DNA from: Blasia pusilla
Lineage: Eukaryota
Assembly: GCA_050084515.1 (NCBI GenBank)
Contig: CM114271.1
Span: forward strand, 3,720,001-3,784,000
DNA length: 64,000 bases
Direction: 5' to 3'
Below, one piece after another: positions 8,333 to 64,000 of this stretch. Under the pieces are notes generated by a model that was not told where the DNA came from, ran no database searches, and saw only the letters and a program-made list of their open reading frames with translations. A program made the position numbers and the translations under genes. Position 1 is the first letter of the stretch. Each line of letters opens with the position of its first letter.

Positions 8333-8657
8333 AGCAGACGATCAAGGATAGACTGAACATTGACCCCACCATGCTGCCTAGGACAAATACAATCTTCGCC
8401 TAGGACACGGTGCAAGAATTCAAATGGATAGATTTTTTACTAATTGAATTAACAGTTACTGTACAATTGTCATTACAGTCCACACGCTGCCCTGACCTTT
8501 ACCTTCATATCATGACCTTCCTATCACTGTCTCCAAACACATTTTGGCGTCTTGATTTCCAAATGTGGCCAGCCCCACATGGACAATAACTCTGAGTGGT
8601 TTATGCACACCTGTCCTTCAATGAGACACCATACCTGAGAGTTCACGAAAACTGAGC

Positions 8658-11600: not shown

Positions 11601-11825
11601 CTCCACTTCCTCTTTATTTTCCTCTAGCTCATTCGTTCCATTCTCAAGAGGAGAGCCCCACGCCTTCACTGCATCTCCCATCGGCCCAGCCTCAGGGCTC
11701 GTGCTAGCCCGGGGATCGACATCAGCTTCAGCAGGAGGAGGATCATCCAGCGCCTGCGCGGCAATAGCATGAAAGGGAGACTCTACACGCGACATAGTCC
11801 CCCACAACGCCACATCCGCACTCAT
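8658..11825 (-). CDS. TRO: TRAUCO/ASH2L-like SPRY-domain subunit of the COMPASS H3K4 methyltransferase complex; exons 11825(or 11795)-11540, 10889-10257, 9367-8658
   Basis: Translation includes [85 protein letters not shown] and FNFGPDF, matching plant TRAUCO/ASH2R. Both GT-AG introns are phase 1 and keep the frame. The start codon is uncertain. Confidence 0.93.
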
Positions 11826-12324
11826 CCACTTCCGATTCTGCAACGCACACCACCTCCTCTCAACCAAACTCCACCACCTTCAACTCCCATTTACATCCCT
11901 TCTCCACCACTCCTCCCCTCTAATTCTTGCCCTCCTCTCTCTCCTCACTACTACAGATTTCTCTCCTCTCCTCTCCTCTCATAGCATCGCATCGCAATTC
12001 GAAGTTCATTCTTCGCGCTATTGATTTGAGCACAATCGTCGAGACCCTCTGTGAGCGCCGGAGCTCCCGCACCTCTTTCGAGCCTCAGGTTCGGTAATCG
12101 GAGGTTCGTTCCCGCTGTACGGCGGAGCGAGCAACCGTACAACGTCCACGACATCCCGTAAAATTGATTTTGTCATGTCGCTATTCAAATATTCGTAATA
12201 CTAGTATTAGTAAGTGCATGTGTAAATACAAAAGTGTCAGAAGAAACGTGATTAATGATTTGATTAAAGACAGATTAATGATGATGTATATAAATTTTTA
12301 AAAAAAATTCTATTCGTAAAATGT

Positions 12325-12758
12325 AAAATTATTATTTTTTCCAATTGCTATGTGTCAAACATATAAGTATTTGCAAATCAAGAACACGTTCTCCCCTAAT
12401 AATATGGATAAATGTTTGACGAATATCTAGGTTACAAAATAATTAGATAAGTTTATTACAACCCATGGTATTAATTTATGCTATCACTAGTATAGAATCT
12501 GTGCAATGAATAAGATTGAAGGGAATGATTAAACGAGGAAGGGAAAGGCTAAACTTTGTTTAAAAAAAAATTAAAGATCACCCTGTGCATAGCACGGGTA
12601 ACACTCTAGTGTATTAACAAGGTAGGATAACTTCTTGATTTGTTTGATATGCGGCGGTGGGGTAGTAAGAAAATCATTTTATAACACCGTAACAAGAAAA
12701 TGATTTTTTTTGGAAACATAATTGTTGTCCTTGTGCAAAGCATAGATTTTCCACTAGT
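12325..12758. mobile_element. Cluster of short Helitron relics
   Basis: 12330-12410 is an inverted copy of the 2657-family 5' part; CCTGTGCATAGCACGGG..CTCTAG|T at 12582-12610 and ..CCACTAG|T near 12757 are Helitron 3' ends. Confidence 0.55.
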
Positions 12759-12911
12759 ACATGAATTAGTGTAGAGAAATTTTTCAAACAGGAATTAATT
12801 CAAGATTGGATACAAGAAAATGGTTGTCACCTCTTTTTTGGTAGAATGGAGAGTATCTGCGCGGTGCGTTAAGTAAGATCAATGATCGAAGCCAATAGGT
12901 CAAGGATGAGA

Positions 12912-14560
12912 TGTTGAGGAGTAGGGTAACCAGCATGTGGATGTTTCCCCTTGGTTTGGGCTGAATTAGAGCCTATTTAAGGAACTTAGTATTTTGAGTA
13001 TATTCCCTATTTCATGAAATTTGACTTTACATATGTAGAAAGTCACATGTGACCCACTATTTTAGGTTTAGGGTCAAGGTGATCTATGTGCACATGAACC
13101 AGGTAGAGGGCTTGCAAGAGCGAAAGAATTCCTCAAGGAGAGAATGCTTGGAAGTTGTTAAAATTAGGGGTCCTACAAACCCATGAGGAATGAAGTGTGT
13201 TAAAGGCCACCTCACTTATATAAGCATAAACTTAAAGCCATAAGACCAACATATTAGTGAGGCTCTCTTCTTAGTCTTAAGGAGGTCCTTTTCTCTCCAT
13301 AAGTGTGTCTTCTCATTTCATAAATTGAATCATACTTAAAAGTTACTAAGGGTAATCTTGTCAATGGTGATAGAACTTAGCATTATTTTCTTTGTTTATT
13401 GTGCAATTGGATTTTTATCATTATATTAGAGCTATTTTTTAACGTTAGACTTGGTAATTGCTATGTTTCAAATGTTCTTCCATTGGTTTATGTTTCTTTA
13501 CTTTCCATAGTTTTTCTTTATAGGCTTTTTTTTCTTATTCTTCTTATCCAAAATAATAGTCTTATACCTAAGATGGACTTTTGTGTCTTTTCATTGGTAA
13601 AAAAGAGACTCTACATCGCTTTTATTTCATTTCCCATAACTATGGCTTCTTCTTCATTTGATCATTGCCTTGAAAGAAACTTTAGCACATGGTCTTTTTC
13701 TATGATGTATTTATTAAGTGCTCAAAAACTCTTTCAATATGTTGACGGAAAAATCGAGAGACCAAGTGAGGAAAAGGCTCATACGAGAGATAATTGGGAT
13801 GAGGAAGAGATGGAAGCCAGAGCGCATATTATTCTTCATATAAATCCATCACAACAAAGTTATATTAGAAAGTGTAGGATTGCGAAAGAGGTGCTTGAAG
13901 TCTCAGCTGAAATCCTTGAACCATTAGGTATTGCTACATAGCTTACTTTGCAAAAGAAGCTTTACAATCTTCGTTACACAAAGGGCGAGTCCATGGAGAT
14001 ATTTTTTCATCAAATCTTTGACCTTAGGGATGAGTACATTAAGATCAGTGGAGAAAGGAGCAAGTGGAGCATGACATGGCTCATGGTGAACATTTTACTA
14101 GAATCTTGGGATATATTGGTTCAATCAATGGAATCATGGAAGAGATTGTCGAAGAAGACAAGGCGTAAAGAGAAGAGCAAACCTTTAGCTTTCACTTTTT
14201 CGGTGCAATCGACAAGAAAACCCAACCAATGCAAGAAATATGCTAGGTTGGACCAGAGAAAGAAAAGTCGACAGGGAGGATCGAACTTAAAGTTGAAAAA
14301 CATATGTCGGGCTTGTCGATAAATTGGGCATTGGAAGGGTGATTCTAAATGCTCAAAATTGAGGAACTACACAACAATTGCAAGTGTAGTTATGGACATT
14401 TCAACACAAGAGATGGTCAAATGCATTTAGCTAAATGCACCAAGATCATTGGTAGATTTTATCTACATGGATTCTGATATCGATATGCATATCGAAGGGG
14501 ATTAAAGAAAGATCCAAAATTTGCATGAAAGTACATCAATCCAATTATAAGACTAGTATG
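12912..14560 (+). mobile_element. Decayed Ty1/copia element: probable LTR, gag, zinc knuckle and protease start
   Basis: ORFs 13399-13941 and 13948-14322 contain NFSTWSFSMMYLLSAQKLFQYVDG, WDEEEMEARAHIILHI and LQKKLYNLRY; then CRACR*IGHWKGD and YMDSD (a decayed DSG). A TGTTG start at 12912 and TGGTGATAGAAC near 13365 (like an iMet PBS) are tentative. Confidence 0.7.
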
Positions 14561-14629
14561 GAGGTATGAATAAATCATGCAGATCATGAGAGATGAATCT
14601 CACAATTTTGGATTCTAAGATAAGAATAT

Positions 14630-15012
14630 CATCTTTATAATACCATAAAAAATCCAAGCTAGACAAACTCCTATCCATCACTCTTAGAAACTCCGTATGG
14701 GTGTTCTTACATCCAAATAGTAAGAACCGCCACTAATATAAGCAATGTCTCCCAAACCAATGTATTCCCCAAAATGTTGTCTTCTTCCTTTCCTCCATCT
14801 TCATAAGAAGCTAATGAGAGCCACCATGGAGATCTAAAGTACTCAAGATCTTTGCATGCTCTATCGCATCAAAGATCTCCTCAAGAGTAGGCATGGCATA
14901 CAGATCTAACCTCGTATGCCGGTTGATACAATAGTAATCGCAACATATCGGTCTATCTATCCAATTGCCATACATGTTCTTCTTCGTTGGCATGACTGTG
15001 GCAAATGCATAC
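14630..15012 (-). pseudogene. RT fragment of an older family-A-like copy (left part of the target into which 15013-23618 inserted)
   Basis: Homologous to 17070-17420 (MPTKKNMYGNW..YAMPTLEEIFDAIEHAKILSTLDL). It resumes at 23619 after the ATAC duplication. Confidence 0.85.
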
Positions 15013-15440
15013 TGTCGTGCGCATACATATCGCTGGTCACATCTACACCACACAACACCGATCTTCCCCACACACGGGTCGATCCACACATGTACAAAAA
15101 TCAACTCATACATATACATGGAGATCAAACAACAAAAAAAAGAGTAGTAAAAACGGCACACCTGGCCTAAAACTCCACTCCGCAATCTACATCGGCATAT
15201 CGAGCCTCATCCACCCTTTGCTATCAAGGAATCCGGACGCTAGCACCCTAGTCCTATCTCACACACATACAAGAGAGGTGCTCCAACAGCCCAACATGAG
15301 AAAGATGGCTTAGGAAATCCATCTTCCTCTCTTATATAGAGTTGGGAAGAGCCAAAAGGCTCTTCCCCCAAAAATATCCATCCACTTGGTAACCTGCGCG
15401 CACAGGTTATCAGGGGCGGTGACCTGGTCAACAAGTCATC
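15013..15440 (-). repeat. Family A 3' terminal repeat (partial) plus unique terminal segment 15013-15135
   Basis: 15137-15440 matches 23148-23446 directly and 15612-15915 as an inverted copy; 15013-15135 has no counterpart in the 5' copies. Confidence 0.85.
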
Positions 15441-16287
15441 AGTCACATCTGAGTAGCCGATATGCCGAGATCTATCGTGGATAGGGCGAAGGAGCCAGCG
15501 GACTATCTTGAGTGTAACTTTGTCCCACGGTGTCGGATGAGGTTGAGGATAGGTCCATTGTGTCGGGAACGTTGTTTCTCACAACTTTCATGTTGAGGTC
15601 TTTTACAGCCAGATGACTTGTTGAATAGGTCATCCACCCCTGGTAACCTATGCACGCAGGTTACCAAGGGGAGGGCTATTTTTAGGGGAAGAGCCTTTTG
15701 GCTCTTCCCAACCCTATATAAGAGAGGAAGATGGCTTTCCTAAGCCATCTTTCTCATGTTGGGCCGTTGGAGCACCTCCCTTGTATGTGTGTGAGATAGG
15801 ACTAGGGTGCTAGCGTCCGGATTCCTTGATAGCACAGGGTGGACGAGGCTCGATAGGCCGATGTAGATTGAGGAGTGGAGTTTTAGGCCGGGTGTGCCGT
15901 TTTTACTACTCTTTATTTTTACATGAGACAGATGTCAGGGGGCTGATGGGAATTCGTTTTTTGCAGGTAGGCAAGCGAGTTGCCTTGGTCGGGAGCCCCT
16001 GGAGACGCGTGTGTTGCGGGTGTTTGTCATTTTTCTGTTTGGAAGGCCGTGGGCGGAAGCGCTGTCCGTTTTTCTTAGATTTTTTTGGTGCACAGGGATT
16101 GGGGACAGCAACAGAGTGAAGTACGGAGTGGGCGTCGGGTGTACGTGAGTGAGGGTGTCAAGAGAGAAAAGAAAAGAGAGTTAGGGCATTGCAGCCACCG
16201 GGGGCGCTGACGGGCGTTTAGGTCAGCGGGCGCTGGCAGACGGCGGCGGACGGCAGACAGCGGCGGACAGCAGACGGCGGGCGCGAC
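15441..16287 (+). mobile_element. Inverted family A 5' end (terminal repeat plus leader) replacing the integrase region
   Basis: Starts (A)GTCACATCTGAGTAGCCGA and is colinear with 61608-62480; joins the RNase H coding end at about 16288. Confidence 0.85.
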
Positions 16288-16907
16288 ATGGGTTACGACT
16301 CAACCCATCCCCATCCTGGTTCAGCCGACCTAGCCTATGAACCACCTCAAACTCATACTCCTGTAGTAATAGAGCCCACATGGCAAGCTTTCCCGTAATC
16401 AGTGATAAGTGTGAAAGGATTGCCAAATAAATAGCACTTGAAATGTGCCAGGGCCCACACTGCAACCAAGCACTCTCCCTCGTAGGAGTTGTACTTTGCC
16501 TCTGCAATGTTGTTCGATCGGCTCGTGTAAGCCACAACGAACTCCCTCTCCTTGTCATCCCTCTGAGTAAGCATTGCTCCTAGACCCAACATGCTCCAAT
16601 CCGTATATAACTGGAATAGGCGACCCCTAACCGGTCTCTGTAAAATGGGTGAGGACGTCAACCTGTCCTTGAGCTCCCAAAATGCTTGCTCCTGATCATC
16701 TCCCCACAACCAAACCTGATCAAGTCTCCTCAACAAGGTCAAAGACTTTGCGATCGCACTAAAACCCTTGACATACCGTCGATAGAAGTTCGTCAGTCCA
16801 AGAAATGCTCGGTCTCGACTCACATCTGTAGGGCATGGAATCTGCGCAATAGCCTCTATCTTCGTCTGCTGAACGCCTAACCCACTCGGGTATATGGTGT
16901 GTCCCAA
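16288..16907 (-). pseudogene. Gypsy RT connection and RNase H (frameshifted near the end)
   Basis: YLGHTI, RAFLGLTNFYRRYVKGFSAIAK, LYTDWSMLGLGAML, YNSYEGECLVAVWAL, WALLLQEYEFEVVHR, DGLSRNP. Confidence 0.92.
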
Positions 16908-16910
16908 GTA

Positions 16911-17690
16911 CTAAATCTGCTCTTGAAAGAATATGCACTTGCCTAGATGTAACTTCAGTCCATGTAACTCCAATCGCCGCAACACCTCCTCCAGGTGTCG
17001 CTCATGCTCCTCAACCGTGGAACTGAAGATAAGAATATCATCTATGTAACATCGTACAAAATCCAAGCCAACTAGAATCCTATCCATCACTCTGTGAAAC
17101 TCTGCAGGCGCGTTCTTCAACCCAAATGGTAAGAACCGCCACTGATACAAGCAATCTCTCCCAAACCAATCTATCCCCCAAAATGTTGTCTTCTCCGTGT
17201 CCTCCAACCTGATGGGAAGCTGATGATAGCCAGCACGGAGATCTAAAGTACTGAAGATATTTGCATGCCCTACCGCATCAAAGATCTCCTCAAGAGTAGG
17301 CATGGCGTATCGATCTGATCTCGTCTGTCGGTTGATAGGACGGTAATCTCCACACATCCGCCTATGTGTCCAATTTCCATACATATCCTTCTTCGCCGGC
17401 ATGAATGTGGGAGATGCATACCCCCCATGTGATAACTCCACAAGTCTTGCTTCCAACAAGTCCTGACTCCTACCCCGAATCAAGGCTCGCTCCATATCGG
17501 AATACCTGTAGGGTCGACGAAAGATTGGCGTATCACTAGCCAACTCAATACGTATCCCGGGACCCTTTAGCGTACCCAAGTCTCTCATACTAAAGGCAAA
17601 ACAATTGACATGCCCTCTTAGAAACCTATGAACTCGCCGTCGCTCTCCTCCTATCAACTTGAGACCTATCACAGGCTCCCAAGTCTCCAT
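16911..17690 (-). pseudogene. Ty3/gypsy reverse transcriptase
   Basis: RMCGDYRPIN, FSTLDLRAGYHQL, LPFGLKNAPAEFHRVMD, YIDDILIFS; same frame as the upstream DNMT and the downstream RNase H. Confidence 0.95.
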
Positions 17691-17969
17691 TGTGACCTCA
17701 CTTGGAGAGGACGCAACCTCCGCCTTTGGTTGCTATGTAGCAACCCTAGCCACCTCCGCAAGAGCCTCTCCACTCTGACATCCTACACCATGCTCCACAT
17801 CCAAAAAATGAACATGTGCTACTCTGGCCGCCTTCGCACTCTCCGCTCGAATGACATCCCAGGACGTCCATGGGTGCCTATCTCTCCTCGTCTCGCCCCC
17901 ATCCAATGCCTGTACAGACGCTGTAGGCAATGGTCCAACTCGTGGACGTGACGGCATCGATGACACTCA

Positions 17970-18945
17970 AATCTGTCTCTGCTCAGCCATACCTAGGCTG
18001 ACTATCCATGTGAGACAATTGAGGTCCATCGCCTGCCCCAACACTTGTCTCCGGGATGCCTCAGTCATCCCTGGCACCGTCGTAGTACCTGTAACGAACC
18101 CCATGGCGCACTCGCGCTCATCTGCTGTAGGCTCCTCCAATGCTCCGGTCACCTCATCCCAAATCATGCTTGGCCCACCTTGACGAAAGGCATGGGATGC
18201 TGGGAAGCTCACCAACGTAGGTAAGGCTGCCCTCAACTCCCCCACCCTATTGGTCATGGCCAACAGTGGTCTATCATCCCGTGTCACCACCTGAGATCGA
18301 CGCCCTGAGCCCAAAATAGCATCCCCTGTGAGATCTGGTGCTCTCTGGACTCCATCGTATGCTCGACTCAATACCTCTAATGGTATCAGGTTCGTCCACC
18401 ACAGTCATGGACGATGGGCACGTGATCCAACTCTCGCTGCATCTAACAACACAGCAAGTCCCAACCAGGACCTCACCTGATGCACACTCGTCATTACACG
18501 TGCATGAGTGTCCCCCAACAACGGCACGTTCTCCAAAATGTACGTTGGAGAACATGTCTGACTCTCCTGCAAGTGTCGTACTACTCGCAGCATCTTCCAA
18601 AACATCCCTGACCTCGGATCCTGCAATCCAAATCCTCGGCCAGCTGATGAATGACCTTGACATGGCCATCCAGCAATAACCAAATGAATGGTGCCAACTC
18701 TATCCAAATCCTACGCCCCCACCAAAGAGATGTCGGCGGGTAGTGTATGTTGATATCCTTGTACTACAGATACCAGCAACGACTCAGGATACCTCTGGAC
18801 CAATCTTGCCACGTGACGTAATGATACTTGCCCCGCGGTCTCATCTCTCTCCACATAAAGGTACTGATGCACCCGTATGCCCACCTGCAATACTGCAGCC
18901 AATCCGGTGCTTATCCCTCCAAAGAGATCTAACACCCTAACACCC
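17970..18945 (-). pseudogene. DNMT3-like cytosine-5 DNA methyltransferase domain within pol (two internal stops)
   Basis: Motif I VRVLDLFGGIS, II YVERD, IV HLVIAGWPCQGHSSAG (PC at ~18660), VI YILENV (~18530), VIII AHRP*LWWTN, IX ERECAMGF, X SRRQVLGQAMD, in canonical order and one frame. Confidence 0.92.
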
Positions 18946-19289
18946 TCCTCTGGGCACTGCCACACAACGGGTGTGGTATCTAGTGGGGTCAACGTCTCCA
19001 CTCCAAGAGCCCGATCACCACGTGACTCTTGCTGCTCCGGGATAAAGGCATGACTCCATGCCTGCCTCACGAGGTCGTCAACACTCCTCTGTAGCTCTCG
19101 AGTCGTACCCCACAATGGTGAAGAGGTCTCGCCAACATGGGAAGAGACACCCGCCATGGCCTGTCTCTCAGTGGGACTATCTGCTAATGGGACATCCTCC
19201 GCATGTGCGTTCCCCTCCAACAACTCTCATGGCCAGCTAACACTACCTGTGAAAGCTGCCAACGTGGTCATAGACTCACCTCGTGATCA

Positions 19290-19760
19290 ACCACCTCGTC
19301 CCGCAAATTGCACGGATAACTGACTCATCCGCCCATCACCTAACCGCCACCCTGGCCGATAAGCAACGGTCTCCTCCCAAAAGTCAAGGATGAATCCTAG
19401 GGGATATAACATTGTACTCCCCACCAACACATCGTACGACTCATCTGGTGTCGTAATCGCACGTGTGCGCACCATAGAACTATCCGTCGCATGCTCTGGC
19501 TGGACTCTGACAACTTTTTCCTGTCGATTCATATACTACGTGGGTGACACGCCCCCAATCAAGGTCTGTATGTGGAAGGGACAAGGCTCAATGTCGGCCT
19601 TCCGTAACCCCAACGCTAAACACGCCGCCTTCCCTAACATCAAGGGTTGCGCTCCCGAATCAAGTAGGACATGCTGCGGGTGGTATACTTTCCCCGTCGG
19701 ACTAACCAAGCAAAATTCTCCAGCTTGATTATCCAGTAATACTACTCCAGGTGTCACCAC
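19290..19760 (-). pseudogene. Retroviral-type aspartic protease
   Basis: VLLDSGAQPLMLGK active-site motif and downstream YDVLVGSTML; same frame as DNMT and RT. Confidence 0.8.
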
Positions 19761-20109
19761 TGCTCATTCTATGGCCGGTTGAGCTGGCAGATCTACCAAC
19801 TTTTCCGCCGCCGCATGCCATGACTCTGTGGGGAACGTCCCGAGCACCAGCTCTGAGGGCAAGTCCACCACCTCCTCAACTACCTCTGAGGAGGTGGTGG
19901 ACTTCCACCTCTCCACGCTCACACAACATGGCGGCCAGCCGGAACACCTCAGCTGATCCAACTTCCAACGTCGCCAACTCTATGGTGGAGAATAGTGGAA
20001 TCTGACTCACTCTGGTGGCCACCTTCAACACTATGGTTGATACTGACTCCACTCGAGCTGGCATAGGAGTTGTCACTCCAACTCCTCATGACGTCTACGC
20101 ACCTGCCTG

Positions 20110-21670
20110 AGCTATAGGCACCGCTGGTTTTCGAGGCACCATCGATGGTGTGTGTAGTGCCTCCGACAATGTGAATGACTGTGGAACCCTGGCCTCCCGC
20201 CCATCAGTCCCCTCTAGTGGGTCAATCTCAACTCCACCTCTCGATGGCTTGGTGCCTCTCGCAGCACCCTAAGTCACCACTGCAATTGCCTCAACGTGGA
20301 CTACACTACACATAAACACCATACTGGCGAGATCCTCACCCGGGTCAGGGTAAGAGGTAGAAGCTGGAGTCACACTAGCTGCTCGCAGCTCCGTGCCTTC
20401 CCTAAGCTGCATCATCGTCATGGCAACAATCCTTTGCTCCAACTGATTGATGTGTGAGAGAAGTGACGGCTCTGGTGCTCCTGCTCCATCTCCTCTGGCT
20501 GGTGGTGGTGCTCTACCACCACGTCCAAGAAGGACTCCCCGACCTCCTCGAGGACGACCGCCCCCAGGCCCTCGGCCTACCTCTGGACGTGCATCTCGGC
20601 GAAGGTCAAAACATCTATCCCTAGTGTGACTATATGTGTGGCAATAGTCACACTGGGGCTGTGGTGGGGCCATCCTCTATGGTTCTTGAGCAATCAGAGG
20701 CGCTTGTGGTCCTCTTCCATGTTGTGGGCAATCTCTCTGCCTATGGGCCCCTCCACACGTCCAACAAGACCACATCGGTCCCTGTTGGGCAACATATGTA
20801 GGTACGGGTCATTGCCTCATAGGCTCACGATGCCTGACCCGCTCTCTGGGCACACCGGCCCGCTCCCGTGGTACTAGTGCTGGCTGTGGCACCTGTGGGG
20901 TCATTGTCGCTCGTGGACCCGTCGACTCTCGAGAAAATCCAGCGGTCACTACCTGCTCCTCACTCATGTTGAGCTCAATACGCTCAAAAAACTCAAAGAC
21001 CACCTTCAATATGGGCTTCACAGTGTGAATTAGCACCGCATCTCGGACTCTCCTCCGTATTTCTTGGCCCAGAACCCCGTACCAATACTGGACTGACTAC
21101 ACCTCAGTCACTCCATACGTAGCGATGATCAGCCTCCTCATGCGTGTGAATGCCTCTCTCAGACTCTCATCCGATCGTCGCTGAAAATCCTGTAGACTCT
21201 TCAGCTTGTCGTGCGTACGCTCTAGTAGCTCTTCCCCAACTGGCGGAAGAACTCCACTGTGGGGCTAAAGCTCGGTGACCCTCTACCACAAGAGGTCTCT
21301 GCCACATCGCCTATCTCACTTCCCTCCTCTCCATCTAGTCTCCGGGATGATGGTGTGGGTCTATCTCCTCTCACAATCCCATCATATGCCTCGTGACCAC
21401 TAGTGGACACATACCATGAAGCCCAATACGTCCTCCAAGCATCGATCTCTACTGAATATAGTGATCAAAACTCCATGTAGTCATCCATCGTAGGACCCTC
21501 CAAGTGCTGGAACAACCCCTTCCATGCCATGAAAGGGTTGAACCGTGTCGGGTCCGTATCTCCTAGAAGTCGCACCACGTGTTGAACTCTTGGATAAAAT
21601 CATCTAAGTCGATGGTGCGCACTGCAACCGAGAAATGACACATGCCCCGATGGCCCATGTCGTCCATCTC
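20110..21670 (-). pseudogene. gag of family A with CCHC zinc knuckle
   Basis: CDYCHTYSHTRDRC (CX2CX4HX4C) at ~20610-20652 followed by an RGG-rich tract; the N-terminus is homologous to 63437-64000 and 29700-30595. Confidence 0.8.
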
Positions 21671-23145
21671 CTGCCAAGTGATACTGCCTCCGTCTGCGAT
21701 CTCGTCACCAGACCCAATGTCTAGTGATGACGATCCACCCACGGATGGATATCAAGGTAGATCCTAACTGGTAACCCCTCGGTATCTCACTCCGCTCCGT
21801 GTGACTCCACTACTACTGCTCGCACTACCCCGTTCTTCCGAACCTTGGAAGAACGCTATGATGACAACCCTGTCTCACCCGCTCAAGCACTCAGACTCAC
21901 CGAGAGTCTCCCACAATCCTCACTAGCTCACCTATGCTAATATCAATCTTGTGATGACATACCCGGCCTCACGCACACTCAACACTCGGGCTCACCATGA
22001 GCCTCCCAACTGACTCACCTAACCTAGCGATACTCTCTCGGGCCATACACGCGACCCCTACTCGGCAACTGCCGTATATCCACCAACATGCTACACATGA
22101 AAAGAATCTACACTCGTCACCATCATTGCACCCACCTAGCACCAGCTACTACTCGATATCCAACTCTCTCAATCACATATGACAAGTGCGGGAAAAGGGA
22201 CTCGAATGGGTAACCTGATCACGCCCTCCAACCTACGGTATTGTCAACATGCACTCCCCCATGTGACACGGCAACCTCATGACTGACAAACTCCCGTCGC
22301 AAATCCCATCCACGCTTGCGAATCACCAAATGCAGAAACGAGCTGCGACTGCACCACTCGCCTCAACCACGTCCAATTGCTCAACCTCGTAGCCTGAGTC
22401 AACCTGGTATGGCTCCACTCCTACCACGTATGCCCTTTCCGGCCCCATCAACATGACCCCGACCACATCCGGCCATCCACGTCCGTTGTCCAACTATGTA
22501 GGTCACTTACCACGTCGGTATCCTCACCGCCACCACGTTACCTAAATGGGGGGGGCCTTGGCTCACACCCCTATGGCTCCTTGGGCCCTAAATGCGGGGG
22601 GGGGGCCTTACAGGCCCACCTTATGGCGCTTCAATGGGATGGCGCGCAACCCTATGCGGGCCTCCCAACTGTGGGAAAGGGGGATAAATGCAGGGGGGGG
22701 GGGGCTTACGGCCTCCCCAAATTGCGGGAAAGGGGTGCGTCTCGCAGCCTCTCCGCCTCCGCGCTCGGCTGCCTCCGCCTCCGCCTCTGCACCCTAAACC
22801 TAGCCGCGCCTAGCCCTAGCCATCCTTGCAACCCTAGCCTTGGCGGCTATAAACTCTCAACGTTTCCTTTCTACACTCCCGCCGTGCACCGTTCTCTCGA
22901 CGCTCCAACACTCTGCGTTGCACTCGAACGCTCGTGCATAACCCCCACTCTGTTTTTGTCCCTCGTTAATTCGCACCAACAAAATCTGAGAAAAAACGGA
23001 CAGCGCTTCCGCCCATGACCTTCCGAACAGAAAAATGACCAACATCCGCAATACATGCGTCTCCAAGGCTCTTGACCAAGGCAACTCGCTTGCCTACTTG
23101 CAAAAAACGAATTCCTACCAGCCCCCTAACATCTTTCTCATTTAA

Positions 23146-23618
23146 AAATAAAGAGTAGTAAAAATGGCACACCCGGCCTAAAACTCCTCAATCTACATTG
23201 GCATATTGAGCCTCGTCCACCCTGTGTTATCAAGGAATCCGGATGCTAGCACCCTAATCCTATCTCACACACATACAAGAGAGGTGCTCCAACGGCCCAA
23301 CATGAGAAAGATGGTTTAGGAAAGCCATCTTCCTCTCTTATATAGGGTTAGGAAGAGCCAAAAGGCTCTTCCCCCAAAAATAACCATCCCCTTGGTAACC
23401 TGCACGCACAGGTTACTAGGGGCGGGTGACATGGTCAACAAGTCACGCGGCTGTGAAATACCTCAACATGAAAGTTGTCAGAAACGAAGTTCCTGACACA
23501 ATGGACCTATCCTCAATCTCATCCGACACCGTGGGACAAAGTTGCACTCAAGATAGTTCGTTGGTTCCTACACCCTATCCACGATAGATCTCGGCCTATC
23601 GACTACTCAGATGTGTCA
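23146..23618 (-). repeat. Family A 5' terminal repeat (~470 bp) with TATA box
   Basis: Reverse complement of 15441-15915 and 61608-62088; CTATATAAG on the minus strand at ~23337-23345. Confidence 0.9.
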
Positions 23619-23800
23619 ATACTCCCCATGAGATAACTCCATAAGTCATGTCTTCCAAAATTCCTAACTCCTATTGTGAATCAAGGCTCGTTCCATGTCG
23701 GAATACCTGTAGGGTCGACGGAAGATCGGCGTATCACTAGCCAAATCAATCCGTATCTCGGGACCCTTCAAAGTACCCAGGTCTCTCATAATGAAGGAAA
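23619..23800 (-). pseudogene. Continuation of the older copy's RT (right part of the target)
   Basis: Homologous to 17418-17600; joins 15012 seamlessly once the insertion is removed. Confidence 0.85.
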
Positions 23801-23802
23801 AA

Positions 23803-24285
23803 AATCCAACATTGTTGGGAGACACTCGTGCAAAGTTGATGACGAGTTTGTATTAGGCAGGTCGTGGTTGGGACCTACCGAATTGTTGGATGCGGCGAGA
23901 GTTGGATCGCGCGCACATCATCCATAATTATGGTGGACAAAAATTCTACAATCGAAGGTATTGAAGCGAGCTTATGATGGAGTTCAAAAAGCACCACACT
24001 TGACAATGGATATTATCTTGGGTTTCGGGCGTCCGTCTCAAGTGGTGACACAGAATGATAGGCCATCGTTGGTGGTAGCCAATAGGATGGGGGAGTTGAG
24101 GGCAACCTTACCTATGTTGGTGAGCTTCCCAAAATCCTATGTCTTTCGTCAAGGAGGGCCATGCATGATTTCGGATGAGGAGACCCAAGCACCGAAGGAG
24201 CCCATTAGTGATGAGTGTGAGCGCTCCATGGGGTTTGTTGCGAGCACTACGGCGGTGCTAGACATGATAGAGGTATCACGCCCCA
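23803..24285 (+). pseudogene. Second DNMT fragment (from just after motif VI to the start of motif X), inverted within the older copy
   Basis: LLDAARVGSRAHHP*LWWTK, RAYDGVQKAP, LPMLVSFPKS and DECERSMGFV align with 18050-18525. Confidence 0.88.
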
Positions 24286-24289
24286 AAAA

Positions 24290-24890
24290 GGTTCAACTAC
24301 GTAGGGGCTTGTATCTCTTGGAAGTCGCACCATGTGTTAAACTCATGGATGAAAATTTCAAGATCTATGGTGCCTATTGCACCCAAGAAACAACGCATGC
24401 CCTAGTGGCCCATGTTATCTATCTCCCTCCACGTGACACTCTCTCCGTATGCAATCTTGTTACTAGATCCGTTGTATAGTTATGACAATCCAACCATTAA
24501 TGGGAGTTGAGGTAGCTCCTCACTTGAAATCCCTTGGTATCTCAAACCACTACCACTGATCAAACTACCCCGTTCTTCCCAACCTTAAAATAATATCGTG
24601 ATGAAAAACATGCCTCACACACTCAAACGCATAGATTCACTAAGAGTCTCCCACACTCCTCACTAGCTCATTTATGCTAATGCTAATCCTGTGACAACCC
24701 ACTTGGCCTCATGTGCACTCAACATTTAGGCTCACCATGCGCCTCCTAAACTAACTCACCTAAGCTACTTACACTCTCTCTCGGGTCACACACGCGACCC
24801 CTACTTAGGAAAAATGTCATATATCCACAATACGCTACCCATATAAGGAGTCTACACTCGTCACCATCACTACATCCATCTAGCTTAAGC
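24290..24890 (-). mobile_element. Leader and gag N-terminus of the older family-A-like copy
   Basis: Colinear with 21555-22140 (GAAGTCGCACCA..., CACTCGTCACCATC). Confidence 0.8.
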
Positions 24891-24923
24891 TCTACCAATG
24901 TCGTATAGTAAAATCATCCACAA

Positions 24924-27575: not shown

Positions 27576-28208
27576 TGTCGTGCGCATACACATTGCTACA
27601 CAACATACATCGCTGTCACCGAACACACACACAAATACGCATGATCCCTATGCTAACTCATGGCATCCAAAAAACGAGACAAGAAGTACCAAAATATCTC
27701 CAATAAAGTAAGATCCAATCTCTCTCTCCACCATCTCACGCCATAGCTCTCAAAGGTGTGCACTCTCTCTCATGTCAAACCAAACCCACTCTCCTAATGA
27801 GAGGCTTGGGTTACACTCACAAGGCAAGGTACCATAGCTCCGCCGCCTCATGCCAAGAGGTTCAACAAAGAGAGAATGAGCTCTCAAGCTCTCTCTCCTT
27901 GAGGTATACCCCTCCCCTCTCCCAAGCTCTCTCCATGGTAACCTATTCTCCCAAGTCACCTCCTTGGCTCTTGACCTGATGTAGGAGGTCAAGGGCCACT
28001 TACCAAAAATAGTAAATAGATCATATACTCAAAATGGTACGTACCTAAAATAATAAGTTGGCTCCAAATGAGCCGAAACAAAGGGGAAACCTGCTATCTC
28101 AGGTTTCCAAGGGCCTCAGCAGGTCACCCTCGACCTACTGGGCGTGTCCTCCACTACTCATGAAGGCGCTCTATTAGATCCCACCGATCTATCCTAAAAG
28201 ACGTGACA
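27576..28208 (-). mobile_element. Family B solo terminal repeat
   Basis: Minus-strand ends TGTCACGTC...GCGCACGACA; perfect 4-bp TSD CAAG (27572-27575 and 28209-28212); matches 28728-29365. Confidence 0.92.
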
Positions 28209-29365: not shown

Positions 29366-29592
29366 AGATCCAACATTCGAATATCCTCCTCTGGGATACA
29401 CCACACAATCGAGGTGGTGTCCAAAGGGATCATAGTAGCACTCGTGGCTACCTCGGGTTCCTTTGACCAGTCACGCTTGGGTGCAAATTCCTGACTCCAC
29501 GCCGTCTGTACGTGCTCATCAGATAAACGTCGGAGCTCCTCGCTCGAGCCCAACAGCGGCACCTCTCCTCCATAGAATGATGCTACTACCAT
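29366..29592 (-). pseudogene. Family B linker and the start of DNMT motif I
   Basis: PLLGSSEELRRLSDEHVQTAWSQEF..IPLDTTSIVWCIPEEDIRMLDL aligns with family A PLWGTTRELQRSVDDLVRQAWSHAF..TPLDTTPVVWQCPEEGVRVLDLF. Confidence 0.8.
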
Positions 29593-29699
29593 AACACTCC
29601 TCTCCCTAGAAGTGTCAAGCGCGGGGGTGTCTCCATGGACATGCCCCTAAATCAAATTAGAAGGCCACTAGATGGCGCTCATGAATGCTGCTAAAGTCA

Positions 29700-46685: not shown

Positions 46686-47413
<728 letters not shown>

Positions 47414-61146: not shown

Positions 61147-61607
61147 TAATGACTAGTGTGTATGGAAGGGCCGAAAGGATACTTATTTAGCTTGGAAAAC
61201 CGCTTTGGCTTTACAACATCCACGGACTTCAGAAGTGCACAATGCCTTTGGGAGAGGAAGAAATTTGTGTGGGAAGAGATTGTGAGTGGTTAGAGTTCCT
61301 CTGAGAAAACCAACATTTTCACCTTGGGTGACCTAAAATTAATGTTGACGAACTCAATAAATCCCAAAGCAATGTGTATACGCCTATGCATATTTTCATG
61401 GTATTTCCTAAACTTAATTTGTATTTTCAAATAGGGTCTCTCTATATTAGATGAACTTATTGCAATAGCCAGCAGCATTGGTGGCTTCGCCCACGGTGCT
61501 AGAGGAAACAAAAGTGGCTGAAGCCGGACTGCTCGAACATCCTCAGTAAGACCAGGCGCAAGGGACGCTAAGAAGCGCATGCTTCCAAGCGGTTCTAAAG
61601 ACACTAG

Positions 61608-64000
61608 TGTCACATCTGAGTAGCCGATAGGCCGAGATCTATCGTGGATAGGGCGTAGGAGCCAACCGACTATCTTGAGTGTAACTTTGTCCCATAGTGT
61701 CGGATGAGGTTGAGGATAGGTCCATTGTGTCAGGAACGTCGTTTTTGACGACTTTCATGTTGAGGTCTTTTACAGCCGGGTGACTTGTTGACGGAGTCAC
61801 ACCGCCTGTGGTAAACTGTCAGGCGCCAAGACGTTACCAAGGGAAGGGATATTCTTAGGAGAAGAGCCTTTTGGCTCTTCCCAACCTATATAAGAGAGGA
61901 AGATGGCTTTCCTAAGCCATCTTTCTCATGTTGGGCCGTTGGAGCACCTCCCTTGTATGTGTGTGAGCTAGGAGTAGGGTGCTAGCGTCCGGATTCTTTG
62001 ATAGCACAGGGTGGACGAGGCTCGATATGCCGATGTAGATTGAGGAGTGGAGTTTTAGGCCGGGTGTGCCGGTTTTACTACTCTTTATTTTTACATGAGA
62101 AAGATGTCAGGGGGCTGGTGGGAATTCGTTGTTTGCTGGTAGGCAAGCGAGTTGCCTTGGTCGGGAGCCCTTGGAGACGTGTGTGTGACGTTGTGTGTCA
62201 TTTTTTCTGTTCGGAAGGCCGTGGGCGGAAGCGTTGTCCGTTTTTCTCAGATTTTGCTGGTGCGGATTGATGGGGGATAGCAGCCGAGTGTAGCGTGTGG
62301 TGGGGCGTCGCGTGTACGCAAGTAAGGGTGTCGAGAGAGAAGGAAAGGGCAGGTTTGGGTCTTGCAGCCGCCGGGGGGCTGTCAAGTAAAGACGGCTAGG
62401 TTAGGTTGCGAAGTTTAGGGTTAGGGCACGGACGGCAGGGCGCGGACAGCAGGGCGCGGACGGCGGACGGCAAGGGCGCGGACGCCGCGGGCCTCCCCCC
62501 CCCCGCATTTAGGGCCCAAGGGCCGCATAGGGCAGCGGGCATAGTCGGTCGGACAGTTGTCGCATACGTGGTTGGCAGGACAGACGAGGTTAGTCGGGCG
62601 AACGTGAGTGGAGATTTTCCAGACATGAGTGGGAGCCGACCAGGGTGAGTCACGTTACATACCGCGCGTGGGGATAGACAGAGAGGTTTGCACGACATGA
62701 TGTTTTGGGGCGCGACAGGGTTGCGAGAGTTTACGATGGAGGGGCAGTGTGCATGATGCCGACGGGTTGTCCGCATCTGTTGACGGGAGGATCGACGTGT
62801 TGGTCGAGGGGAGTGTTATGTGGCGGAGATTGTCATATCATGTGGAGGAGTGCATATTGACGGTGCAGCAGGTTGGAGGGCGTGATCAGGTTATCCATTC
62901 GAGTCCCTTTTCCCGCACTTGTCGTGTATGATTGAGAGTGCTGGGTATCGGGTAGTAGCTGGTGCTAGATGGGTGCAGTGATGGTGACGAGTGTAGATTC
63001 TTTTCATGTGTAGCATGTTGGTGGATATACGGCGGTTGCCGAGTAGGGGTCGCGTTTATGACCCGAGAGTGTGTCGCTAGGTTAGGTGAGTCAGTTGGGA
63101 GGCTCATGGTGAGCCCGAGTGTTGAGCGTGCGTGAGGCCGGGTATGTCATCATGGGATTGATGTTAGCATAGGTGAGCTAGTGAGGCGTGTGGGAGACTC
63201 TCGGTGAGTCTGAGTGCTTGAGCGGGTGAGACAGGGTTTGTCATCACGACGTTCTTCCAGGGTTCGGAAGAACGGGGTAGTGCGAGCAGTGGTAGTGGTG
63301 TGACACGGAGTGGAGTGAGATACTGAGGGGTTACCACTGAGGAGCTCCCTCGACATCCATCTCGGATGGATCGTCATCATCGGACCGGGTCCGGTGACGA
63401 GATCACCGGCGAGAGATAGTAGTACTTGGCAGGAGATGGACGACATGGGCCATCGAGGCATGCGTCGTTTCTCGGGTGCAGTGGGCACCATCGACTTAGA
63501 TGATTTCATCCAGGAGTTTGACACATGGTGCGACTTCCAAGAGATACGGACCCCGACACGGTTCAACCCTTTCATGGCATGGAGGGGTTGTTCCAAAGAT
63601 TTGGAGGGTCCTCCGATGGATGACTACATGGAGTTTCGATCACTATATTCAGAGAGATCGATGCCTGGAGGATGTATTGGGCTCGGGGTATGTGTCCACT
63701 AGTGGTCGAGGCATATGATGGGATTGTGAGAGAGAGAGACCCACACCATCAGCCCGGAGACTAGATGGAGAGGAGGGCGGTGACACAAAGCGATGTGGCG
63801 AGACCTCGGTGGTAGGGGGCCACCGGCTTCAGCCCCACAATGGAGTTCTTCCGACGGTTGGGGAAGAGCTACCAGCGTGCACGCACCGACAAGCTGAAGA
63901 GTCTCAGGATTTTCAACGGCGATCGGGTGAGAGTGCGAGAGAGGCCTTCACATGCATGAGGAGGCTGATCATTGCTACGTTTGGAGGATCGAGGCGCGAT
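61608..64000 (+). mobile_element. Further family A element (5' repeat, leader, gag start), running off the window
   Basis: Starts TGTCACATCTGAGTAG after CTAG; colinear with the reverse complement of 23618-21110. Confidence 0.92.
63437..64000 (+). pseudogene. gag N-terminus of the 61608 element (frameshifted)
   Basis: MDDMGHRGMRRFSGAVGTIDLDDFIQEFDTWCDFQEIRTPTRFNPFMAW..EGPPMDDYMEF. Confidence 0.8.

What the first reader, a model, noticed from the sequence alone, without database searches (positions are those of the whole stretch)
16288..21670. Gypsy-type retrotransposon encoding its own DNMT3-like cytosine methyltransferase inside pol
Seen: the minus-strand ORF pieces starting at 19961, 19760, 19532, 19223, 18707, 18371, 17966, 17690 and 16907 are all in one frame. 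They read protease (LDSGA), linker, a C5-MTase with motifs I, II, IV, VI, VIII, IX and X (LDLFGGI, GWPCQG, ENV, AHRP-LWWTN, ERECAMGF, RRQVLGQAM), RT (YIDD) and RNase H. Known: motifs VIII-X here resemble DNMT3 (AHRARYFWGN, EMERVFGF, ARQRLLGRSW), and the I-to-X order is unlike the permuted plant DRMs. From memory, DNMT-bearing retrotransposons were reported in dinoflagellates and the charophyte Klebsormidium (de Mendoza et al. 2018); I do not know of a described case in a land plant. Inference: the MTase was made as part of the polyprotein and could have methylated the cDNA or the insertion site.
Basis: partly seen in the sequence, partly recalled or inferred. Interest (0 to 1): 0.93.

Follow-up and report, generated by a model that had tools for sequence, protein, structure and literature searches.

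The report
Liverwort retrotransposon carrying DNMT3-like methyltransferase
This is a decayed copy of a jumping gene in a liverwort that carries its own DNA-methylating enzyme, a kind of element described so far only in algae, and its family is very abundant in this plant.

Summary
On the minus strand, 19979 to 16223 is one frame holding protease, a colinear C5-methyltransferase (MT), reverse transcriptase (RT) and RNase H. The MT is DNMT3-like by sequence profile and by fold.

It is not a one-off. Related proteins occur in Marchantia, Calypogeia, Sphagnum and Closterium. In a genomic run carrying the same coded organism label as the run that holds the window's gene (share 0.95), MT, gag and PR lie at about the same very high read depth. 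By its ASH2/TRAUCO exon the host is a liverwort, so a land plant.

This copy is dead. It has premature stops and frameshifts, a 37-nt deletion in RNase H, and no integrase. It sits nested inside an older copy, with a 4-bp target duplication.

Three refinements:
- One "stop" (TAG, 17733-17735) is native and conserved, so the MT ends ORF1 (gag-PR-MT) and RT-RH-INT probably needs readthrough.
- The family has split direct repeats (A1...B1-A2-B2) together with a DDE integrase, as reported for KnitGypsy-Dnmt3 of Klebsormidium.
- MT activity is untested, and the Klebsormidium domain gave no methylation in yeast.

Verdict: a new member of a known kind, in a new host group.

The parts
15009..15012 (.). 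Left copy of the 4-bp target-site duplication (ATAC) of the nested element. The right copy is at 23619-23622.
   Evidence: The older copy's RT sequence ends in ATAC at 15012 and resumes with ATAC at 23619. Both align to main-copy positions 17418-17421.
15013..15133 (-). B2, the 3' terminal repeat segment. The element ends here in ...CA on its sense strand.
   Evidence: The terminal letters closely match the B2 end of locus L027. Genomic read depth here is about 1100 (table 4).
15134..15438 (-). Remnant of A2, covering about offsets 170-477 of repeat A.
   Evidence: 90.85% identical over 306 nt to A1 (23145-23445), in the same orientation.
15441..16209 (+). Inverted A repeat plus leader. Most likely the 5' end of a second element of the family that inserted into A2. 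A later deletion would then have removed its body together with the main copy's integrase, B1 and the start of A2.
   Evidence: 88.9% identical to 23615-22946 (inverted) and 88.4% to 61609-62381 (direct); 782 genomic reads have loose, unlike ends before 15442 (agreement 0.36), which marks a true element terminus. The insertion-then-deletion scenario is inference.
16286..16910 (-). RNase H domain, broken by a 37-nt deletion at 16398 and truncated. No integrase follows.
   Evidence: RT_RNaseH_2, residues 1092-1191; relatives align down to 16286; 410 reads carry 37 extra letters at 16398; no integrase match.
16911..17732 (-). Reverse transcriptase. The RVT_1 core is at 16893-17360 and YIDD at 17037-17048.
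17727..17735 (-). Conserved in-frame stop TAG (17733-17735) followed by CAA CCA. This is the native end of ORF1 (gag-PR-MT) and a putative leaky stop.
   Evidence: the same position carries a stop in the window and in 14 metagenome loci; at least 22 of 37 database ORFs end 78-202 residues after MT motif X. The CAR YYA context is described in PMC2754532 (passages).
17970..18977 (-). DNMT3-like C5 cytosine methyltransferase domain with motifs I, IV, VI, VIII, IX and X in the normal order. It carries three premature stops (18711-18713, 18405-18407, 17967-17969).
19536..19763 (-). Aspartic protease region, with LLDSGAQP at 19644-19667.
   Evidence: for the motif. Pfam did not report a protease on this copy. 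The relative P0025 gives Asp_protease_2 at E 8.8e-5, 23.6 bits, just under the 24.3 cut-off.
19980..21667 (-). gag, with two CCHC zinc knuckles (within 20269-20808). It is broken by frameshifts.
   Evidence: four tblastn pieces in different frames; one-base insertions at 21210 and 21549 and small deletions at 19890-19905 in a third to a half of the family reads.
21668..23140 (-). 5' leader. It includes a stretch (22326-22876) that is nearly private to this copy.
   Evidence: 21111-22278 is 88.8% identical to 63986-62826; depth is about 15 in 22326-22876 against about 1140 beside it.
23141..23618 (-). A1, the 5' terminal repeat. The element starts with TG on its sense strand at 23618.
14577..15012 (-). 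Downstream half of the RT of an older copy of the family, split by the insertion of the main copy. The upstream half is at 23619-23802.
   Evidence: 14617-15012 is 82% identical to 17026-17421, and 23619-23802 is 86% identical to 17418-17601.
23812..24281 (+). C-terminal MT fragment (motifs VIII-X) of another, scrambled copy.
   Evidence: 77% identical to 18521-18052, inverted.
61605..64000 (+). 5' part of a further copy (A repeat, leader, gag start at 63436), cut by the end of the window.

Best explanation
The finding is a dead, rearranged copy (15013-23618, minus strand) of a high-copy Ty3/Gypsy-like retrotransposon family of a liverwort. The family carries a DNMT3-like cytosine-5 methyltransferase.

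Shown:
- The family order is A1, leader, gag(CCHC), PR, MT, in-frame stop, RT, RNase H, integrase, B1, A2, B2.
- The MT is the last domain of ORF1 and keeps all catalytic motifs across very diverged relatives.
- Insertion makes a 4-bp target duplication, and the element ends in TG...CA.
- This copy inserted into the RT of an older copy. It then lost its integrase and accumulated stops, frameshifts and a deletion.
- The family is transcribed in sense.

Inferred:
- RT-RH-INT is made by readthrough of the conserved stop, so the MT is produced in Gag-like amounts (about 0.6).
- In intact members the MT is an active DNA methyltransferase (about 0.6).
- It methylates the element's own new cDNA in the particle or pre-integration complex, so copies arrive already methylated (about 0.35).

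The lineage is the same kind as KnitGypsy-Dnmt3 of Klebsormidium.
For: Domains
- Pfam finds RVT_1, RT_RNaseH_2, RT_RNaseH and DNA_methylase in one frame.

DNMT3 likeness
- The window's MT best matches DNMT3A (E 1.6e-7). HhaI and DRM2 score 0.01-0.03.
- A profile of nine family MT domains gives DNMT3A 4.3e-23, DRM-type 5e-12 and HaeIII 7e-8. The top 29 of 55 PDB sequences are DNMT3A/B/C.
- The AlphaFold model of the uninterrupted MT reading frame of relative L003 has pLDDT 83.2 and pTM 0.80. Every row listed among the top 50 Foldseek ranks is DNMT3A/B/C, with target TM up to 0.84.

A family trait
- 46 proteins match at E<=0.001 among 8000 candidates scored: 14 Marchantia, 1 Calypogeia, 1 Sphagnum, 7 Closterium and 23 unnamed.
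- Marchantia P0008 reads PR-MT-RT-RH in one gene model.
- The eight metagenome loci that still align to integrase and have no large interruption (L002, L003, L004, L009, L010, L011, L026, L027; some are the same element from two samples) read (gag-)PR-MT-RT-RH-INT in one orientation.
- The L027 integrase carries Integrase_H2C2 plus rve.
- Marchantia has at least 5 ORF1 proteins of 1278-1281 aa in one 90%-identity cluster.

Abundance and transcription
- In about 1% of a genomic run (X14, same coded organism label as the holders of the window's gene), 83,188 of 12,434,590 records lay on 8000-24500 at 80% likeness or more.
- Depth is 1166-1402 over MT, 1116-1227 over gag and 2215 over RT. It is about 0.24 over the spliced host gene.
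- RNA depth over MT is 5-23, almost all in the same mate orientation as the minus-strand host gene (all).

Selection
- Catalytic motifs are invariant in the alignment of nine diverged MT domains, which has 46 invariant columns.
- Window against L003, L011 and L006: pN 0.22, pS 0.70-0.73, dN/dS 0.10-0.13. dS is near saturation.

Native stop
-.

Repeats and insertion
-.

Host
- The ASH2/TRAUCO exon is 77% identical to Marchantia, 78% to Calypogeia and 74% to Riccia. The next best hits are 56-59%.
Against: - This copy cannot make anything. It has eight premature stops between PR and RH besides the native one, and it has frameshifts, a 37-nt deletion and no integrase.
- No intact copy was shown in this host, because no genome is held.
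- All metagenome copies I checked for long ORFs (L003, L010, L027) are also broken.
- No MT of this lineage has been shown to be active. The KnitGypsy-Dnmt3 domain gave no methylation in yeast, which the authors call inconclusive (PMC5890265, section 10 read whole).
- Readthrough is inferred from conservation only. 4 of 15 copies fit CAR YYA fully, 10 have CAA CCC and one has two stops.
- Orthology with the Klebsormidium elements could not be tested. No Klebsormidium protein appeared, each of which scored only about 8000 candidates.
- The copy number is rough, because the single-copy depth rests on a handful of reads.
Confidence: 0.85

Rival explanations
1. The MT domain is kept by the family but does not methylate DNA. 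It could act as a regulatory or decoy partner of host DNMT3 (as DNMT3L does), tether the particle to chromatin, or methylate RNA.
For: The KnitGypsy-Dnmt3 MT domain, like SymbioLINE-Dnmt, gave no de novo methylation in yeast (PMC5890265, section 10). The authors themselves raise RNA methylation for the LINE case (passages). Placement in ORF1 means Gag-like amounts, which would suit a structural or binding role.
Against: The catalytic residues are invariant across MT domains only 36-71% identical: motif I glycines, the motif IV cysteine, ENV and the motif VIII arginines. Non-synonymous change is far below synonymous change between lineages. Human DNMT3B was also negative in the same yeast assay, so that negative result says little.
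Confidence: 0.25
2. The MT is a one-off: a host DNMT3 fragment captured by this single copy, or an assembly chimera.
For: None beyond the fact that most plant Gypsy elements have no such domain.
Against: Genomic read depth over MT (1166-1402) equals that over gag and PR and is thousands of times that of the host gene. The same domain order is found in Marchantia, Sphagnum and Closterium proteins and in the metagenome loci. A second MT fragment lies in the same window at 23812-24281.
Confidence: 0.02
3. It is a DIRS-like (tyrosine-recombinase) element rather than a Gypsy element, as its repeat arrangement might suggest.
For: The A1...B1-A2-B2 arrangement is the one known from DIRS-like elements (PMC5890265 figure legends).
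Against: No Pfam recombinase appears in any of the six frames of the element or its flanks. The full-length relative L027 has Integrase_H2C2 plus rve. There are 4-bp target duplications and TG...CA ends in the window and in L027. RT and RNase H match the Gypsy-type Pfam models.
Confidence: 0.02
4. The family was acquired by horizontal transfer among bryophytes and algae rather than inherited since an early streptophyte.
For: In the MT tree the window's MT is about equally far from Calypogeia (72%), Marchantia and Sphagnum-type sequences. The base of the liverwort-plus-Sphagnum clade is unresolved.
Against: Synonymous sites are near saturation between the lineages (pS 0.70), which fits long separate histories. 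The Marchantia sequences form one clade (99) and the Closterium sequences lie outside the bryophyte clade. The tree is unrooted, quick and built on 80 of 130 rows, so neither history is shown.
Confidence: 0.2

Closest known systems
KnitGypsy-Dnmt3 of the charophyte Klebsormidium nitens (de Mendoza et al. 2018, PMC5890265; abstract, passages and section 10 read; supplements not seen)
   Same: A non-permuted DNMT3-type MT inside the polyprotein of an intronless Gypsy-type element. [quoted passage not shown] Key catalytic residues are conserved and the MT is under purifying selection (their Ka/Ks < 0.2; here dN/dS 0.10-0.19 between lineages).
   Different: The host here is a land plant (a liverwort), with relatives in Marchantia, Calypogeia and Sphagnum. 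The family is very abundant (0.67% of sampled genomic reads lay on the stretch), whereas the paper speaks of few copies in K. nitens. The conserved stop between MT and RT and the 4-bp target duplication are not mentioned in the text I read. Sequence orthology was not tested, because no K. nitens sequence was available.
SymbioDIRS-Dnmt3 of Symbiodinium (same paper)
   Same: A DNMT3-type MT sharing an ORF with RT, and A/B split repeats. For these elements de novo CG methylation in yeast was shown.
   Different: They are DIRS elements with a tyrosine recombinase in a dinoflagellate host, and the authors hold the acquisition to be independent.
Host DNMT3 enzymes (animal DNMT3A/B/C; plant DNMT3)
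   Same: The best sequence-profile and fold matches are DNMT3A/B/C, and motifs I-X run in the normal order.
   Different: No PWWP, ADD or plant companion domain was reported by Pfam. Only 20-23% identity to human DNMT3 in the structural alignments. The domain is embedded after a protease in a retroelement ORF.
Green-algal Gypsy elements with a related MT (named hits: Haematococcus lacustris, Chromochloris zofingiensis, Monoraphidium neglectum)
   Same: The MT is of the same type (30-42% identity, profile E down to 1e-135), on a Gypsy RT/RH/integrase backbone.
   Different: The order is RT, RNase H, MT, integrase, PHD finger, not PR-MT-RT. They form a separate clade in the MT tree (97).
TMV-type leaky stop (UAG CAR YYA; PMC2754532, passages)
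   Same: The window has TAG CAA CCA, and L021 and L023 have TAG CAG TTA, at the conserved ORF1 end.
   Different: 10 of 15 copies have CAA CCC, which misses the last position. No readthrough was measured.

Membership tests
Ty3/Gypsy (Metaviridae-like) LTR retrotransposon | Gypsy-type RT followed by RNase H | tested here: met
   RVT_1 4.3e-28, RT_RNaseH_2 1.4e-27 and RT_RNaseH 3.1e-19 on the window's frame.
Ty3/Gypsy (Metaviridae-like) LTR retrotransposon | DDE integrase downstream of RNase H (order PR-RT-RH-INT) | tested here: inconclusive
   Absent from the window copy. Present in full-length relatives: L027 has Integrase_H2C2 1.5e-14 and rve 1.2e-12 after RNase H. The family meets the feature; this copy has lost it.
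Ty3/Gypsy (Metaviridae-like) LTR retrotransposon | Two plain direct long terminal repeats | tested here: not met
   The repeats are split. In L027, A is 1676-2017 and 10350-10691, and B is 10238-10350 and 10693-10805. The window has A1 at the 5' end and A2-B2 at the 3' end. About 317 genomic reads join the B end to the A start.
Ty3/Gypsy (Metaviridae-like) LTR retrotransposon | Short target-site duplication and TG...CA termini | tested here: met
   ATAC in the window, AAGG in L027, TG...CA ends in both.
Gypsy-DNMT3 elements (KnitGypsy-Dnmt3 type) | Non-permuted DNMT3-type MT within the retroelement polyprotein | tested here: met
Gypsy-DNMT3 elements (KnitGypsy-Dnmt3 type) | DIRS-like repeat arrangement combined with Gypsy domains | tested here: met
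   The feature is taken from the Fig. 4c legend of PMC5890265.
Gypsy-DNMT3 elements (KnitGypsy-Dnmt3 type) | Common descent with the Klebsormidium elements (MT and RT trees) | not testable with these tools
   No Klebsormidium sequence could be obtained. None appeared among the named hits.
DNMT3 family of C5 methyltransferases | Catalytic motifs I, IV, VI, VIII, IX, X in the normal order, closest to DNMT3 rather than DNMT1, DNMT2, DRM or bacterial enzymes | tested here: met
   Profile against PDB: DNMT3A 4.3e-23, DRM-type 5e-12, HaeIII 7e-8, DNMT2 2.6e-4, and no DNMT1 row among the 55. Fold search. A tree with host DNMT3 was not made.
DNMT3 family of C5 methyltransferases | Cytosine-5 DNA methyltransferase activity | not testable with these tools
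The only published test of a Gypsy-DNMT3 domain was negative and inconclusive.
DRM (domains-rearranged methyltransferase) | Circularly permuted motif order (VI-X before I-V) | tested here: not met
   The motifs run I to X. DRM2 matches only the motif I-IV half, and more weakly.
DIRS-like retroelements | Tyrosine recombinase instead of DDE integrase; no target duplication | tested here: not met
   No recombinase in the six frames. rve integrase in L027. Target duplications present.

The most novel reading that the evidence does not exclude
Gypsy-DNMT3 elements are an ancient streptophyte lineage that crossed onto land with the bryophytes and is still intact in the model liverwort Marchantia polymorpha. 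Their Gag-PR-DNMT3 protein, made in Gag-like amounts ahead of a leaky stop, methylates the new cDNA before an integrase inserts it. Because it is made in bulk, it may also add de novo methylation to host DNA in trans. A transposon-borne DNMT3 would then be a real contributor to bryophyte methylomes.
Probability: 0.12. Interest if true: 0.85.

Novelty: new member of a known kind. Interest (0 to 1): 0.6.

Why it matters
- Retrotransposons that carry a cytosine methyltransferase are described in print, as far as my searches reach, only for dinoflagellates and the alga Klebsormidium. One paper states that methylase-encoding transposons are absent from land plants 'such as tracheophytes'. This window and its relatives place the kind in liverworts and in Sphagnum.
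- In this liverwort about 0.4% of sampled genomic letters are gag-to-RNase H sequence of the family.
- Marchantia polymorpha, which is genetically tractable, holds several near-identical full-length gag-PR-MT reading frames. The open question of what a transposon gains from its own DNMT could therefore be tested there.
- The copies also inflate DNMT counts in bryophyte annotations. One is named 'DNA (cytosine-5-)-methyltransferase' by UniRef.

Tried and rejected
- Whole-genome search of the host: no genome is held.
A second call sent in the same turn returned an error. No earlier finding was seen.
- The look-up of sequencing runs on 37471-40068: no RNA holder listed.
- Primer-binding-site search with four recalled tRNA-complement motifs: no match in the window.
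- Decay signature:
  - Only 3 of the 9 in-frame stops align with Arg, Gln or Trp in relatives.
  - CpG observed/expected of the element (0.60-0.69) lies within the range of the host exons (0.29-0.96).
  - I therefore make no claim of methylation-driven decay from these.
  - Among the listed read differences, places where this copy has A or T against family G or C (496) outnumber the reverse (319). That is only suggestive.
- Intact copies in metagenome loci: L003, L010 and L027 have no ORF longer than 449 codons.
- Protein atlas: returned only generic PF00145 clusters, from streptophytes and phages, so it adds nothing.
The tree is midpoint-drawn, 'quick', and built on 80 of the 130 MT domains. 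I kept all named rows, all loci and all MT-before-RT rows, and dropped every second one of the remaining unnamed rows.
- Gene identifiers of the Marchantia copies: found in no main text. Supplements are closed and could hold them.

Full report
**1. What is in the sequence**

Between 19979 and 16353 the minus strand holds nine contiguous stop-to-stop pieces in one frame. I read this frame through with X at each stop (P0001). Pfam then finds RVT_1 (E 4.3e-28), RT_RNaseH_2 (1.4e-27), RT_RNaseH (3.1e-19) and DNA_methylase PF00145 (1.6e-8; 34.8 bits against a cut-off of 22). Intact relatives align from gag residue 1 at 21667 to the end of RNase H at 16286.

**2. The methyltransferase is DNMT3-like**

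- The window's own MT region matches the DNMT3A catalytic domain best (E 1.6e-7). HhaI and DRM2 score 0.01-0.03.
- A profile of nine MT domains of the family (alignment A1) gives DNMT3A 4.3e-23, DRM-type 5e-12, HaeIII 7e-8 and DNMT2 2.6e-4. The first 29 of the 55 matched PDB sequences are all DNMT3A/B/C.
- One relative, L003, has an uninterrupted MT reading frame of 449 codons. It folds with mean pLDDT 83.2 and pTM 0.80. Every row listed among the top 50 Foldseek ranks in the PDB is DNMT3A/B/C, with target TM 0.76-0.84 for the catalytic-domain chains.
- The motifs run I to X, so this is not a permuted DRM.
- No PWWP, ADD or other companion domain was reported.
- I could not make a rooted tree with host DNMT3.

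**3. It is a family trait, not a one-off**

- The MT region finds 46 proteins among 8000 scored candidates: 14 from Marchantia polymorpha, 1 from Calypogeia fissa (71% identity, the best hit), 1 from Sphagnum fallax, 7 from Closterium and 23 unnamed.
- Marchantia P0008 reads PR-MT-RT-RNase H.
- Of 66 metagenome loci I examined 15 for element structure. Eight of them (L002, L003, L004, L009, L010, L011, L026, L027) show (gag-)PR-MT-RT-RH-INT in one orientation without a large interruption. The others are truncated or rearranged. Several loci are the same element from two samples, for example L026/L027 and L008/L009.
- An exhaustive HMMER search with the L003 MT frame finds 236 cluster representatives at E<=1e-30, 796 at <=1e-10 and 2974 at <=0.001. 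Many of these are polyproteins of 1000-3456 residues.

**4. Abundance and transcription in the host**

I laid about 1% of a genomic run (X14) and 6-12% of three RNA runs on 8000-24500 at 80% likeness. These runs carry the same coded organism label as the runs that hold the window's gene at 37471-40068 (share 0.95).

- Of 12,434,590 genomic records, 83,188 lay on the stretch (0.67%). Nearly all lie on 14612-22325 and 22877-23978.
- Summed depth is 1166 and 1402 in the two MT bins, 1116-1227 over gag, 2215 over the RT core, and about 0.24 over the spliced host gene at 8000-11305.
- The mean depth of about 1340 over 16265-22325 amounts to about 0.4% of the letters read.
- Copy number is therefore in the hundreds to thousands. 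The single-copy depth rests on very few reads, so I give no finer figure.
- Only 353 reads are 99% alike or more and 6613 are 95-99% alike. This copy is 5-20% away from most of its family.
- RNA reads cover MT at depth 5-23 and RT/RNase H at 24-88. They lie almost wholly in the mate orientation shown by the minus-strand host gene, so the transcripts are sense. Most of these reads are under 95% alike, so they come from other copies.

**5. The host is a liverwort**

An exon at 10258-10887 belongs to an ASH2/TRAUCO gene. RNA reads show it is spliced on the minus strand, with introns at 9367-10255 and 10890-11539. The exon is 77% identical to Marchantia, 78% to Calypogeia and 74% to Riccia. The next best hits are 56-59% (lycophytes, ferns, seed plants). 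In all, 404 hits reach E<=1e-20 among 1464 candidates. I did not try to name the species.

**6. State of this copy**

The PR-to-RNase H frame has nine in-frame stops. Eight are premature and three of those lie in the MT. gag aligns in four pieces in different frames, and many family reads differ there by one- or two-base indels. RNase H has a 37-nt deletion at 16398 that 410 reads do not share. No integrase is found in the window by Pfam or by tblastn with integrase-bearing relatives, and no Pfam family lies on the plus strand.

The element is bounded by TG at 23618 and CA at 15013 on its sense strand. It is flanked by the duplication ATAC and splits the RT of an older copy (14577-15012 and 23619-23802).

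Its 3' part reads RNase H, then an inverted A-plus-leader segment (15441-16209), then A2 offsets 170-477 (15134-15438), then B2 (15013-15133). The simplest history, which is inference, has two steps. A second element inserted into A2. One deletion then removed that element's body together with the main copy's integrase, B1 and the start of A2.

A1 and the A2 remnant are 90.85% identical over 306 nt, so the insertion is old. I give no date because I have no rate for this lineage.

**7. A native stop between MT and RT**

The stop at 17733-17735 is not damage. At the same place, 99-136 codons after MT motif X, an in-frame stop followed by a Gln codon (a Pro codon after a double stop in L019) is present in the window and in 14 loci. 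I looked at 24 loci: four lacked the motif in frame and six had lost the frame before that point. The stop is TAG in 10 copies and TAA in 5.

The next six bases are:
- CAA CCA in the window and L011;
- CAG TTA in L021 and L023;
- CAA CCC in 10 copies;
- TAG CCA in L019.

RT is in the same frame in every locus where both parts align. At least 22 of 37 database proteins, including contiguous metagenome ORFs of 1228-1775 residues, end 78-202 residues after motif X without reaching RT. UAG CAR YYA is the context needed for readthrough of the tobacco mosaic virus stop (PMC2754532, passages). I therefore read the MT as the last domain of ORF1 (gag-PR-MT), with RT-RH-INT made by readthrough. The readthrough itself is inferred. 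Closterium P0035 has one open frame through MT and RT, so the stop is a trait of the bryophyte-type clade.

**8. Split direct repeats with an integrase**

- In L027 the repeats are A 1676-2017 and 10350-10691 (92%) and B 10238-10350 and 10693-10805 (94%). That is A1, coding region, B1-A2-B2.
- Its ends are TGTCATG...CATGACA. It is flanked by AAGG on both sides, and the B1|A2 junction is a palindrome around two bases.
- It encodes Integrase_H2C2 plus rve.
- L027 belongs with L003 by their almost identical MT-RT linker sequences. L003's MT sits next to Sphagnum fallax P0034 in the tree.
- In the window's host the same arrangement follows from the genomic reads. About 317 reads join the B end (15011-15029) to the A start (15442/15443), about 100 join A offset 477 to B, and 782 have unlike loose ends at the A start.
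- This is the arrangement that de Mendoza et al. describe for KnitGypsy-Dnmt3 (Fig. 4c legend).
- How reverse transcription regenerates such ends for an integrase is unexplained.

**9. Selection and relationships**

The nine-sequence MT alignment has 46 invariant columns, including the catalytic motifs, at 36-71% identity to its first sequence.

| Comparison (Nei-Gojobori) | pN | pS | dN/dS |
|---|---|---|---|
| Window vs L003, L011, L006 | 0.22 | 0.70-0.73 | 0.10-0.13 (dS near saturation) |
| Among decayed copies of the L003 group | not quoted | not quoted | 0.59-0.83 |

The within-group values are as expected for neutral decay.

A quick, midpoint-drawn MT tree was built on 80 of 130 domains, with every second unnamed row outside the MT-before-RT class left out. 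It places the window in a clade of 19 rows with Calypogeia, Marchantia, Sphagnum and unnamed sequences (SH-aLRT 100). That clade sits inside a bryophyte-type clade of 28 (98), beside a Closterium clade (96). A separate clade of 42 (97) holds green-algal sequences whose order is RT-RH-MT-INT-PHD.

**10. Comparison with print**

- KnitGypsy-Dnmt3 is the closest described system (PMC5890265: abstract, passages and section 10 read; supplements closed).
- Later papers cite it as 'streptophytes (Gypsy-DNMT3)' (preprint 10.64898/2026.05.21.726589, passages) or simply repeat it (PMC12344493, passages).
- PMC6338049 says such transposons are not present in land plants 'such as tracheophytes' (passages).
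- PMC6453930 and PMC11982613 say nothing on the matter in the passages found.
- Searches found no description in a bryophyte. Subscription journals and supplements were not searchable.
- The Marchantia proteins are public but are labelled hypothetical, CCHC-type, or by UniRef 'DNA (cytosine-5-)-methyltransferase'. At least five of 1278-1281 residues fall in one 90% cluster, two of them on the V chromosome.

**11. Verdict**

The element is a new member of a known kind in a new host group. The copy in the window is dead. What the MT does is still unknown: the only published test of a Gypsy-DNMT3 domain was negative and inconclusive.

Noticed in passing
window 17727-17735; loci L001, L003, L004, L008-L011, L014, L015, L019, L021, L023, L026, L027: A conserved in-frame stop (TAG or TAA) lies about 100-136 codons after the MT, followed by CAA CCN or CAG TTA. 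This puts the MT in ORF1 and suggests programmed readthrough into RT-RH-INT.
   Followed up: yes
L027 1676-10805; window 15013-23618: Split direct repeats A1...B1-A2-B2 occur together with a DDE integrase, a 4-bp target duplication and a palindromic B|A junction. The replication mechanism is unexplained.
   Followed up: partly
window 14577-24896: The same family is nested at least three levels deep: an older copy's RT is split by the main copy, and the main copy's A2 is hit by a further element. Beside it lies a scrambled copy: an RT N-terminal piece on the minus strand (23619-23802), an MT C-terminal piece on the plus strand (23812-24281), and gag/leader on the minus strand (24286-24896).
   Followed up: partly
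proteins P0036, P0185, P0214, P0227: Green-algal and unnamed metagenome Gypsy polyproteins carry a related MT in a different place (RT-RH-MT-INT) and end in a PHD finger. P0214 also has a G-patch. They form their own clade in the MT tree.
   Followed up: partly
window 8658-11540 and beyond, minus strand: A host ASH2/TRAUCO (SPRY-domain) gene. It is expressed and spliced in three RNA runs, with introns at 9367-10255 and 10890-11539.
   Followed up: partly
window 37471-40068, minus strand: An open frame of 865 codons, serine-rich and probably a large host exon. Contigs of four runs hold 92-95% of its sampled words.
   Followed up: no
window 27576-29365, 32893-33401, 46961-47414: Another repeat family. 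The left ends of its copies at 27576 and 28728, and a site at 46686-46703, carry the same 15-22 nt terminal motif as the B2 end of the main element. gag-like fragments of a more distant relative lie at 29341-30508 (minus strand).
   Followed up: no
window 22326-22876: A stretch of the 5' leader that almost no other family read shares (depth about 15 against about 1140 beside it). A 206-codon plus-strand open frame (22398-23018) overlaps it.
   Followed up: no
window 13381-13941, plus strand: An open frame that looks to me, from recall, like a Copia-type gag. It lies just beside the older Gypsy-DNMT3 fragment and was not tested.
   Followed up: no
cluster of P0004: Marchantia polymorpha has near-identical 1278-1281 aa gag-PR-MT genes on chromosomes 4 and 5 and on the V sex chromosome (Mp_Vg00370, Mp_Vg00540), which hints at recent activity there.
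   Followed up: no
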